A DNA stretch of 62,402 nucleotides, filler included, from Pirum gemmata (Eukaryota), in NCBI GenBank assembly GCA_002812295.1. It is 15 parts of 15 records of this genome, joined end to end, with 100 filler letters (N's around TTAATTAATTAA, not from the genome) between each part and the next. Parts side by side here need not be neighbours in the genome. Positions count along the whole stretch, not along the records: positions 58,460 to 62,402 come from PDIN01001698.1; 14 more parts are not named here. One strand, given 5' to 3'. Below are positions 60,753-62,379 of the stretch, piece by piece. Every line of letters starts with the position of its first letter. The stretch's first letter is position 1. A model generated the notes under the pieces. That model was not told where the DNA came from, searched no databases, and was given only the letters and a program-made list of their open reading frames with translations. The translations under genes and the position numbers were made by a program.

Positions 60753-62379
60753 TTATAAATACATTCTCTCACGCCTATGGTAGCGATCGAGAAGGACGCG
60801 GTCTTGGAATTAAGTCCTGTTCTCCCAACTGGTCGTCCCGTCTTTCCATTCAACGAGATATTGGAGTACCCCGTTGACTGTGGAATGATTCTTAATCTTG
60901 TTAATCTCATTCACTACACCGCTAATGGGATGTAAAAGATCTAAACGCTGCCAGCCAGCTAGTTGTTCAATAGGCACGGGGTAAGCATTTATAATGACTA
61001 ACTGTCGTTCGACATCTGTTAGGTTATAATGTTTATCACCCACTCTCTTTAAAATTCGGTAGGGCCCTTTATAAAGATTATCTATTTTAGACCCGTTTGA
61101 ATTAAGATTGGCCATTTTGACAATTTCGCCTTCTGTGAACCTGTGGACCCCCTTTAAGATTCATTTTCATCTGGACGGTCGGAAGTGCTTCCACCCATCC
61201 AGTTGAATAAAGGCTTAATTTTTCCTTTATTAAATCTCTTATGAGAGCGTGACGTCTCTCATTAGATTCTTGAGTTTGGGGATGATATGGTGCCCCGCCT
61301 CGCACTAAGATACCAGATAAAGATACTAGCATATCCTTCACGTGTTTATTAACGAATTCTGTCCCACGGTCATGTATTATTGTTACCGGATAACCGTGAT
61401 CACACATAACAGCATACAGTGCTTCTGCTACTGCTAAGCCACTTTTAGCTTTAGTTACGCGTAATATATTATAACCACTATAAACATCCAGTATATGTAA
61501 CACAAGCCTTGTATTATCAACATCTTTTGGAAGTGGTATTATGTCAACAACCCATTTGTCTCCAACAAACTGTCCACGTATAGATTTAAGTGGATGATAG
61601 CCAGTTTTGGAAATCTTATTTAACTCACAGTGTAGACACAGGTTATCGGCATGTCTAGCGACAGCTTCTAAATCCGGCCAGGAGTATCTCCCGTTGTATC
61701 GTAACTCATCGATTACGTATTCGACGTGCGAGTGGGTTGCGTTATGGTACGCCTTTGCTATTTCTAACTTAGCGTCATAACTGAGTTTTCCAGATAGAGA
61801 GTGGTCACTATTGATATTATCTTTCTGTATAATCTCAACACTTTCTTCTGCATCTGAGTGATCGTTATTACGAGGTAAGCTTACTAATTCACGATCCAAC
61901 CCAGGAATGGCAGCAATACGGCTGTTTTCCATTTGTGGTTCAACTCGTGGAAGAATTAAATCATTCCATTTGTAACCATATCTATTGATATTCTCATCAA
62001 TAGAGTTTAACAGATTAACATAAAAGTCTGTTGATATAGGTTTGGTTTTGGATACATCACCCGTCACTCGTGCTATCATTGTGAACCTCCATGGTGTGTT
62101 CGAACAAACCTTTTTACCTTCTTTTAAGAAAGTATCCTTATCATTTGGGAGAATTATGGGATCCGAGGTCACCATCTCCGTAAACTGTTTAAACCATTGG
62201 GCGTTTGTCCAAAATGGCAAACATAAGGTTACTGTAGCACTTGTTTCCTCAATATAATCTAAAACATTTTGAATGAGGTGAAAAGGTGGATTACACCAAC
62301 CATTTTCTTTTGACCAGTCTACAGTAAACGCATCACTATGTACATCGAAATATCTATCGAGTTGTGCATTGTGGCTGGC
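60753..62379 (-). mobile_element. Defective element fragment encoding Dam-like N6-adenine methyltransferase + H2C2 zinc finger + DDE integrase + GPY/F + chromodomain
   Basis: One frame from 62379: NAQLDRYF..DAFTVDW...WCNPPFHLI..VL...LPFW...WF (MTase), YHNATHSH...CLHC, WVVDI, IHDRGTEF, PYHPQTQESNER; after a frameshift near 61155: FTEGEIV, LYKGPYRI, QYLVEWKDGTTSWE; in-frame TAA at 60810-60812, natural stop at 60753. Confidence 0.88.

What the first reader, a model, noticed from the sequence alone, without database searches (positions are those of the whole stretch)
60753..62379. Dam-like adenine methyltransferase fused to a Gypsy-type integrase-chromodomain
Seen: the ORF track starts at 62220, but the same minus-strand frame is open to 62379 and adds ASHNAQLDRYFDVHSDAFTVDWSKENGWCNPPFHLIQNVLDYIEETSATVTLCLPFWTNAQWF, with an intact NPPF at 62292-62281. 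About 100 aa downstream, in the same frame, come an H2C2 finger and a D,D(36)E core, then GPY/F and a chromodomain. Established: this pattern is the phage-type Dam N6-adenine methyltransferase (Pfam PF05869-like) known from the RT-RNaseH-MT polyprotein of DIRS elements, which integrate with a tyrosine recombinase and lack a DDE integrase. Inference: this is a DDE-integrase element (chromovirus-like LTR retrotransposon, DIRS/Gypsy chimera or Ginger-like transposon) carrying its own 6mA writer next to a chromatin reader, able to mark its own DNA or insertion site. I cannot confirm from here that the MT-INT-chromo order is undescribed.
Basis: partly seen in the sequence, partly recalled or inferred. 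Interest (0 to 1): 0.88.

Follow-up and report, generated by a model that had tools for sequence, protein, structure and literature searches.

The report
Broken Dam-carrying Gypsy retrotransposon copy
This is a broken piece of a Gypsy-type jumping gene, most likely from the single-celled animal relative Pirum gemmata, with a predicted adenine-methylating domain in front of its integrase; the element family was described in a 2026 preprint, so it is largely ordinary apart from an overlooked chromodomain at its tail.

Summary
The Dam-like domain is real (PF05869 above cut-off, NPPF at 62292-62281) and shares a frame with an H2C2 finger and a D,D(36)E integrase. GPY and the chromodomain are not in that frame: about 200 nt are deleted near 61150, and a stop interrupts the chromodomain. 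The Dam piece is cut at a microsatellite and lacks its first 25 residues. Intact relatives read protease-RT-RNaseH-Dam-integrase-chromo in one ORF, so this is a Ty3/Gypsy LTR element, not a DIRS chimera or Ginger. The scaffold's EF3 is 100% identical to a Pirum gemmata protein. A May 2026 bioRxiv preprint already describes an ichthyosporean DAM-LTR lineage in this species, and Dam-plus-chromodomain elements in green algae. Two earlier scan notes found DAM-LTRs on other DNA. Two small additions: the preprint says this lineage lacks chromodomains, but a divergent one with an incomplete aromatic cage is present, below Pfam thresholds; and the Dam model's nearest solved fold is the RNA cap methyltransferase PCIF1, not T4 or E. 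coli Dam. This copy cannot be active. Already known; interest low.

The parts
62056..62379 (-). Dam-like (PF05869) N6-adenine methyltransferase domain, lacking its first 25 residues; NPPF at 62292-62281
   Evidence: Pfam E 5.5e-8 for the domain alone; tblastn of relatives; missing part measured
61750..62055 (-). Poorly conserved linker of about 100 aa between Dam and integrase, same frame
61627..61746 (-). Integrase H2C2 zinc-finger motif (HNATHSH ... CLHC)
   Evidence: motif positions; the four ligands align with invariant columns of the relatives; no Pfam H2C2 hit in the window itself
61153..61551 (-). DDE integrase core: D 61545, D 61371, E 61260 (D-36-E)
   Evidence: rve E 4.7e-7
61124..61156 (-). 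Internal deletion of about 200-212 nt with change of frame; the Dam-integrase frame stops at 61104-61102
   Evidence: present in an independent run (X2)
60951..61139 (-). GPY/F (SH3-like) integrase C-terminal module, other frame; GPY at 61067-61059
   Evidence: SH3_Tf2-1 E 0.0012, below cut-off; 52-55% identity to the two closest full-length relatives over this module plus chromodomain
60753..60911 (-). Divergent chromodomain, interrupted by TAA at 60812-60810; natural stop at 60755-60753; first and third aromatic cage positions are N and G
62380..62402 (.). (TTA)n microsatellite abutting the 5' break; window end
   Evidence: the X1 contig runs on 32 nt past 62375

Best explanation
This is a 5'-truncated, internally deleted remnant of a Ty3/Gypsy retrotransposon that most likely belongs to the described ichthyosporean DAM-LTR lineage of Pirum gemmata, and whose intact relatives encode protease, RT, RNase H, a predicted adenine methyltransferase, integrase and a divergent chromodomain in one reading frame. 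Shown: the domain order in relatives, the three lesions of this copy, the clade with named ichthyosporean proteins. Inferred for intact copies (the preprint's model, not tested here): pol is packaged in the particle, the methyltransferase puts N6-methyladenine on the reverse-transcription intermediate or new cDNA, and after integration the host AMT1 system maintains the mark, so that new insertions look like active genes and stay transcribed (about 50% likely). The chromodomain probably acts as an integrase targeting or interaction module but not as a classical methyl-lysine reader. This copy has no RT within the assembled sequence, no motif before the Dam catalytic loop, a frameshift and a stop, so it cannot do any of this.
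For: 4 of 5 longer homologues found among 4517 candidates carry Dam plus integrase homology at 42-59% identity; three are full PR/RT-RNaseH-Dam-INT polyproteins; two are named Abeoforma whisleri proteins. Integrase tree of 141 rows (quick tree): the window sits in a 14-row clade (SH-aLRT 99); 10 of the other 13 rows carry Dam, and the three without are fragments; all 5 named rows are A. whisleri or P. gemmata. The scaffold's EF3 is 100% identical over 65% of the ORF to EukProt Pgem_evm1s3442. The preprint names a DAM-LTR lineage in P. gemmata, A. whisleri and S. arctica and reports more 6mA and more transcription on DAM-LTR insertions. The Dam model has a class I SAM-dependent methyltransferase fold. 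Chromodomain.
Against: The preprint says the ichthyosporean lineage lacks chromodomains, whereas these sequences have one. I could not place the window in the preprint's own Dam tree, as its sequences and supplements were not seen. No LTR, PBS or gag could be shown for this copy or a close relative. EF3 lies across several N gaps from the element. No methyltransferase activity has been shown: the preprint's E. coli test was negative, and Iyer et al. call DIRS-type domains likely inactive. The tree is the quick version, without bootstrap.
Confidence: 0.9

Rival explanations
1. Same element, different chemistry: the 'Dam' domain is a PCIF1-like enzyme that methylates the element's RNA, or the RNA:DNA hybrid inside the particle, and not double-stranded DNA; the 6mA seen on insertions would come from host AMT1 following transcription.
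For: The nearest solved fold is the cap-specific adenosine methyltransferase: all 4 Foldseek matches at E <= 0.001 (best 1.3e-5, TM 0.69), and VIA-align Z 10.4 (rmsd 2.8, 130 aligned) against 8.9 for the next row, 8.0 for T4 Dam (rmsd 2.7, 104 aligned) and 7.8 for E. coli Dam. Iyer et al. place DIRS methyltransferases in the PCIF1 clade. The 136-aa domain has no separate DNA-recognition domain in the model. The preprint tested only E. coli genomic DNA and found nothing.
Against: By sequence the domain is closest to phage DNA methyltransferases (PF05869 in 13 of 13 rows, phrog_111 in 11 of 13; PCIF1_WW in only 1 of 13, E 0.008). No structure of a PF05869-type phage enzyme appeared among the hits, so PCIF1 may just be the nearest solved neighbour. 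A shared fold does not show substrate. DAM-LTR insertions carry more DNA 6mA.
Confidence: 0.2
2. The methyltransferase domain is catalytically silent and is kept as a nucleic-acid-binding or mimicry module.
For: Iyer et al. say all DIRS1 copies are likely inactive; negative heterologous assay.
Against: NPP plus an aromatic residue is kept in 11 of 13 aligned domains, and a D-x-[FM]-A motif lies 33-34 residues before it in 10 of 10 relatives checked. Such conservation at 33-65% identity suggests catalysis.
Confidence: 0.25
3. A one-off chimera, nested DIRS fragment, Ginger-like DNA transposon or misassembly.
For: This copy has no RT or LTR in the window; no second copy in the window.
Against: The Dam-integrase junction is colinear in relatives that carry RT and RNase H upstream; an independent run bridges it with 0 differences.
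Confidence: 0.02

Closest known systems
Ichthyosporean DAM-LTR lineage (Fernandez-Moreno et al., bioRxiv 10.64898/2026.05.21.726589; whole main text read, figures and supplements not seen)
   Same: Same host species named; Dam domain in a Ty3/Gypsy pol; closest named relatives are A. whisleri and P. gemmata proteins; NPP triplet kept.
   Different: The preprint says the lineage lacks chromodomains; here a divergent one is present but scores below Pfam's cut-off and above the preprint's 1e-5 threshold. This copy is broken.
Chlorophyta DAM-chromovirus-like clade and EpiLTRs (same preprint)
   Same: Dam and a chromodomain in one LTR element; the preprint gives chromodomain-bearing LTR elements as 30.9% of its DAM-TEs.
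   Different: Other hosts and an independent capture according to the preprint; no cytosine methyltransferase in these relatives.
DIRS1-type RT-RNaseH-MT elements (Iyer et al., PMC4738411, passages read)
   Same: Same methyltransferase family, directly behind RNase H.
   Different: DDE integrase in the same ORF; no tyrosine recombinase hit.
Group II chromodomains of plant chromoviruses (PMC3605345, passages read)
   Same: Chromodomain at the integrase end lacking the third cage aromatic (12 of 12 rows) and often the first (6 of 12).
   Different: Non-plant host; that 2013 paper says group II had been seen only in plants. Common ancestry with the plant domains was not tested; parallel loss is as likely.
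PCIF1/CAPAM cap-specific adenosine methyltransferase (PDB 6irw, 6irx; the PCIF1 name for these entries is recalled)
   Same: Nearest solved fold, covering the whole 136-aa model.
   Different: 12-16% identity; no WW or helical domain; substrate of the element's enzyme unknown.

Membership tests
Ty3/Gypsy LTR retrotransposon | pol order protease-RT-RNaseH-integrase | tested here: met
   Met in relatives P0001, P0003, P0010, P0014 and others. The window itself holds only the part from Dam onward.
Ty3/Gypsy LTR retrotransposon | HHCC plus DDE integrase with GPY/F module | tested here: met
   GPY displaced to another frame by the deletion
Ty3/Gypsy LTR retrotransposon | Two LTRs, PBS, PPT, target-site duplication, gag | tested here: inconclusive
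   5' half absent from the window; no genome held; no second copy of the 3' flank in the window; scans returned no locus of this family
Ichthyosporean DAM-LTR lineage | PF05869 domain inside an LTR-type pol | tested here: met
Ichthyosporean DAM-LTR lineage | Host is P. gemmata, A. whisleri or S. arctica | tested here: met
   EF3 on the scaffold 100% identical to Pgem_evm1s3442; all 5 named clade members are from P. gemmata or A. whisleri
Ichthyosporean DAM-LTR lineage | Falls inside the preprint's 97% Dam clade | not testable with these tools
   The preprint's sequences and supplements were not available; my tree is of the integrase, against search hits
Ichthyosporean DAM-LTR lineage | Lacks a chromodomain (descriptive statement of the preprint) | tested here: not met
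   Domain present by profile and fold. It would be scored absent at the preprint's threshold: best Pfam Chromo E 3.7e-5 among 12 trimmed domains; as whole proteins only P0007 (0.014) and P0015 (0.00051) of the clade members scanned hit at all. I read this as a detection limit and not as non-membership.
Classical (group I / HP1-type) chromodomain | Three-residue aromatic cage | tested here: not met
   Second position W in 12 of 12, first aromatic in 6 of 12, third in 0 of 12; window N/W/G (positions counted from the alignments to HP1/CBX)
Active N6-adenine methyltransferase | SAM-binding motif plus NPP[YFW] loop on a class I fold | tested here: met
   Met in relatives (reading D-x-[FM]-A as the SAM-binding motif is recalled family knowledge). 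Not met in the window copy, which lacks that motif.
Active N6-adenine methyltransferase | Methyl transfer to DNA | not testable with these tools
   The preprint's E. coli assay was negative
DIRS (tyrosine-recombinase retrotransposon) | Tyrosine recombinase instead of DDE integrase | tested here: not met
   DDE integrase in frame with Dam in window and relatives; no recombinase family among the Pfam hits of 27 relatives
Ginger DNA transposon | Gypsy-like integrase without RT, terminal inverted repeats | tested here: not met
   Full-length relatives at 58-59% identity carry RT and RNase H in the same ORF

The most novel reading that the evidence does not exclude
Ichthyosporean DAM-LTRs are cryptic chromoviruses with a cage-less chromodomain, and their 'Dam' is a PCIF1-type enzyme that methylates the element's own RNA or RNA:DNA intermediate instead of duplex DNA. 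That would explain why it did not methylate E. coli DNA, and would make it a retrotransposon-encoded m6A writer for its own genome in transit. The chromodomain half alone is about 85% likely; the substrate half is the long shot.
Probability: 0.2. Interest if true: 0.6.

Novelty: already known. Interest (0 to 1): 0.2.

Why it matters
The element class matters because it suggests that transposons can exploit the host's 'active gene' 6mA mark, but that case was made in the 2026 preprint, for this species among others. What this window adds is small. First, a correction: the lineage has a divergent chromodomain, so the split between 'chromo' and 'non-chromo' DAM-LTRs may partly reflect a Pfam threshold. 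Second, a pointer for the open biochemical question: the fold is nearest to PCIF1, so RNA and RNA:DNA substrates should be assayed.

Tried and rejected
No whole genome is held, so copy number, a full-length copy and LTRs could not be sought in the assembly. Viral-contig scan with alignment A1: 9 loci, all Dam-like matches with no RT or integrase match to P0002 nearby. Metagenome-contig scan with P0008: 4 loci, none of this family; L010 is a Dam-less chromovirus. Profile search of the Dam alignment against PDB sequences: nothing better than E 0.55 (Chk1, chance). Foldseek of the chromodomain model had no match at E <= 0.001 (66-aa query), best 8.5e-3. No RNA holder is listed; X3's RNA label is a guess, so nothing is said on expression. 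Reads on the wider flank were not obtained, so what lies beyond 62407 stays open. The careful integrase tree did not finish; the quick tree was used, and 13 of 153 proteins that did not cover 160 aa of the integrase were left out. The number of independent Dam captures was not tested. Faster decay of the retained protein was considered and not seen: 7 departures at 140 otherwise invariant columns, against 12 of 145, 5 of 138 and 1 of 134 for the three closest relatives. No tRNA gene in the window. Literature searches found no paper on a chromodomain in this lineage; only two papers hold 'Pirum gemmata', 'retrotransposon' and 'chromodomain', and of the second (PMC11244446) I saw only the search listing.

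Full report
Observation. On the minus strand one frame is open from the window end to a stop at 61104-61102. It begins in a (TTA)n microsatellite, turns into protein-like sequence at 62379, and holds NPPF at 62292-62281, HNATHSH at 61746, CLHC at 61638 and a D,D(36)E triad at 61545, 61371 and 61260. Pfam gives Dam PF05869 at 29.4 bits (cut-off 28.1; 33.1 bits for the domain alone) and rve at 30.4 bits (cut-off 32.6). So the Dam-integrase fusion is real. GPY and the chromodomain lie in a second frame, 61160-60813. Between the end of the core and the IVKM motif the window has 31 nt, where 4 of 5 relatives checked have 77-81 residues (the pattern did not match the fifth), so about 200-212 nt are deleted. 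A TAA at 60812-60810 cuts off the chromodomain's last helix; sequence matching the relatives continues behind it. At the 5' end 25 residues of the Dam domain are missing, including the DLMA motif of the closest relatives.

Are the junction and the lesions real? Three runs hold the stretch. X1, which may be the source, has one contig over all of 60560-62375 with 0 differences. X2, from another study, has one contig over 60802-62375 with 0 differences; it bridges the Dam-integrase junction and the deletion. X3 has a contig over 60711-61065 with 0 differences, bridging the stop. The copy is therefore a real, broken genomic sequence. Its retained protein is no more diverged than the intact relatives (7 departures at 140 otherwise invariant columns, against 12 of 145, 5 of 138 and 1 of 134), which suggests recent breakage. 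Short pieces at under 90% identity with very high depth in X1 hint at abundant related elements, but depth here is no copy number.

What the intact element looks like. A search among longer proteins gave 5 hits from 4517 candidates; four match at 42-59% identity and carry Dam. P0001, P0002 and P0003 read (protease)-RT-RNaseH-Dam-integrase in one ORF of 1341-1432 aa. The exhaustive search (5718 hits at E <= 0.001, best 150 listed) added more with the same order. This is the Ty3/Gypsy order with Dam inserted between RNase H and integrase. It excludes Ginger (RT present) and DIRS (DDE integrase; no recombinase family among the hits of 27 relatives). LTRs, PBS and gag could not be shown: no genome is held, and neither collection scan returned a locus of this family.

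Host and lineage. The EF3 gene on the scaffold (12292-16056) is 100% identical over 65% of the queried ORF to EukProt Pgem_evm1s3442; the Pgem prefix is Pirum gemmata. EF3 is separated from the element by N gaps. In a quick integrase tree of 141 rows (140 of 153 proteins; 13 that did not cover the region were left out) the window lies in a 14-row clade with SH-aLRT 99. Of the other 13 rows, 9 carry Dam and the C-terminal domain, 1 Dam only, 2 the C-terminal domain only and 1 neither; the last four are fragments of 241-478 aa. All 5 named rows are Abeoforma whisleri or P. gemmata. Other Dam-bearing rows (26 of 140 in all) are scattered over the tree, as repeated capture would give; I did not test that.

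What is in print. bioRxiv 10.64898/2026.05.21.726589 (whole main text read; figures and supplements not seen) defines five DAM-LTR lineages. [quoted passage not shown] It reports more 6mA and more transcription on DAM-LTR insertions in A. whisleri and S. arctica, a negative methylation assay in dam-minus E. coli, and proposes that Dam marks reverse-transcription intermediates which host AMT1 then maintains. So both the element and the Dam-plus-chromodomain idea are described. Two earlier notes of this scan reached the same paper for other genomes; I had read the paper before seeing them.

The chromodomain. The preprint says the ichthyosporean lineage lacks chromodomains. I aligned the C-terminal stretches of 11 relatives and the window (A2). 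A profile built from these alone hits PDB chromodomains at E down to 4e-9; of the 60 sequences shown (87 matched) all but one, labelled uncharacterized, are chromodomain proteins. All 12 rows hit Pfam Chromo at E <= 0.1, best 3.7e-5, which is above the preprint's 1e-5 threshold; this probably explains its statement. The window's own 46 residues hit the cpSRP43 chromodomain at 3.9e-5. An AlphaFold model of the P0002 stretch (pLDDT 89, three strands and a helix) gives only chromo or chromoshadow domains in the 38 Foldseek rows listed, though none at E <= 0.001. The labels are circular for rows used in A2, but proteins outside A2 also hit: P0004 (A. whisleri, 2e-7), P0024 (P. gemmata, no Dam, 2e-11) and three 1492-aa cluster-mates of P0011 (4e-13 to 1e-12). 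The aromatic cage is incomplete: W at the second position in 12 of 12, an aromatic at the first in 6 of 12, at the third in 0 of 12; the window has N, W, G. That is the pattern given for group II chromodomains in PMC3605345 (passages read). A classical methyl-lysine reader is therefore unlikely. More distant Dam-bearing elements do have canonical chromodomains: 6 of the 22 proteins (P0019, P0020, P0023, P0028, P0035, P0036) pass Pfam's Chromo cut-off and carry a Dam hit, which is below cut-off in P0023, P0028 and P0036.

The methyltransferase. In 13 aligned domains NPP plus an aromatic is kept in 11, and D-x-[FM]-A lies 33-34 residues upstream in 10 of 10 relatives checked. A model of the A. 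whisleri domain P0018 (pLDDT 93) matches class I SAM-dependent methyltransferases over its whole length. The best match is the cap-specific adenosine methyltransferase (Foldseek E 1.3e-5, all 4 matches at E <= 0.001; VIA-align Z 10.4, rmsd 2.8, 130 aligned), ahead of rRNA adenine methyltransferases (8.9 and below), T4 Dam (8.0) and E. coli Dam (7.8). This agrees with Iyer et al., who place DIRS methyltransferases in the PCIF1 clade and call them likely inactive (PMC4738411, passages read); the preprint's main text does not mention PCIF1. Against an RNA reading, by sequence the domain is closest to phage DNA methyltransferases, and a shared fold shows no substrate. I put self-methylation of the DNA intermediate at about 50%, a silent domain at 25% and an RNA or hybrid substrate at 20%.

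Verdict. A real but broken copy of an already described element lineage, in a species that the description names. Novelty: already known. Interest 0.2, for the overlooked cage-less chromodomain and the PCIF1 pointer. The unseen supplements of the preprint may already show either point.

Noticed in passing
window 56218-57851: Telomere-type arrays in both orientations (TAGGGT at 56218-56300, CTAACC at 57291-57375 and 57459-57561, AGGGTT at 57769-57851) interleaved with CTAG/GCTA repeats, in the middle of the scaffold.
   Followed up: no
window 59161-60063 (+): An open frame of 300 aa with a DJ-1/PfpI domain (E 2.3e-9), about 700 nt from the element's 3' end and separated from it by an (AAT)n array at 60209-60541.
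   Followed up: no
window 62379: Contigs of both X2 and X3 begin, by their record offsets, exactly at 62379, the border between microsatellite and element, while X1 runs on 32 nt past 62375. It may be a branch to another copy or an effect of low complexity.
   Followed up: no
window 60743-60545 (-): Behind the natural stop come a 7-nt purine run, TG at 60736, an AATAAA, and a CA just before the microsatellite: a weak candidate for PPT plus 3' LTR, with no second copy to test it.
   Followed up: partly
P0024 (Pirum gemmata): A close Gypsy relative with protease-RT-RNaseH-integrase and the same chromo-like tail but no Dam; it may stand for the state before capture or for a loss.
   Followed up: partly
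P0019, P0020, P0023, P0026, P0028, P0034, P0035, P0036, P0069: Dam-bearing Gypsy polyproteins from unnamed public assemblies, on several separate integrase branches, many with canonical chromodomains; hosts unknown; they may include lineages beyond the preprint's five.
   Followed up: partly
L001-L009: Viral contigs with stand-alone Dam-like genes at 26-38% identity to the element domain and no RT or integrase match nearby.
   Followed up: partly
L010 1-5847: A Dam-less chromovirus in one 1683-codon frame, with a 123-nt direct repeat at the contig ends and a short GGGTTA run in its 3' non-coding part.
   Followed up: no
window 12292-16056 (+): Elongation factor 3 gene, used to name the host.
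   Followed up: yes
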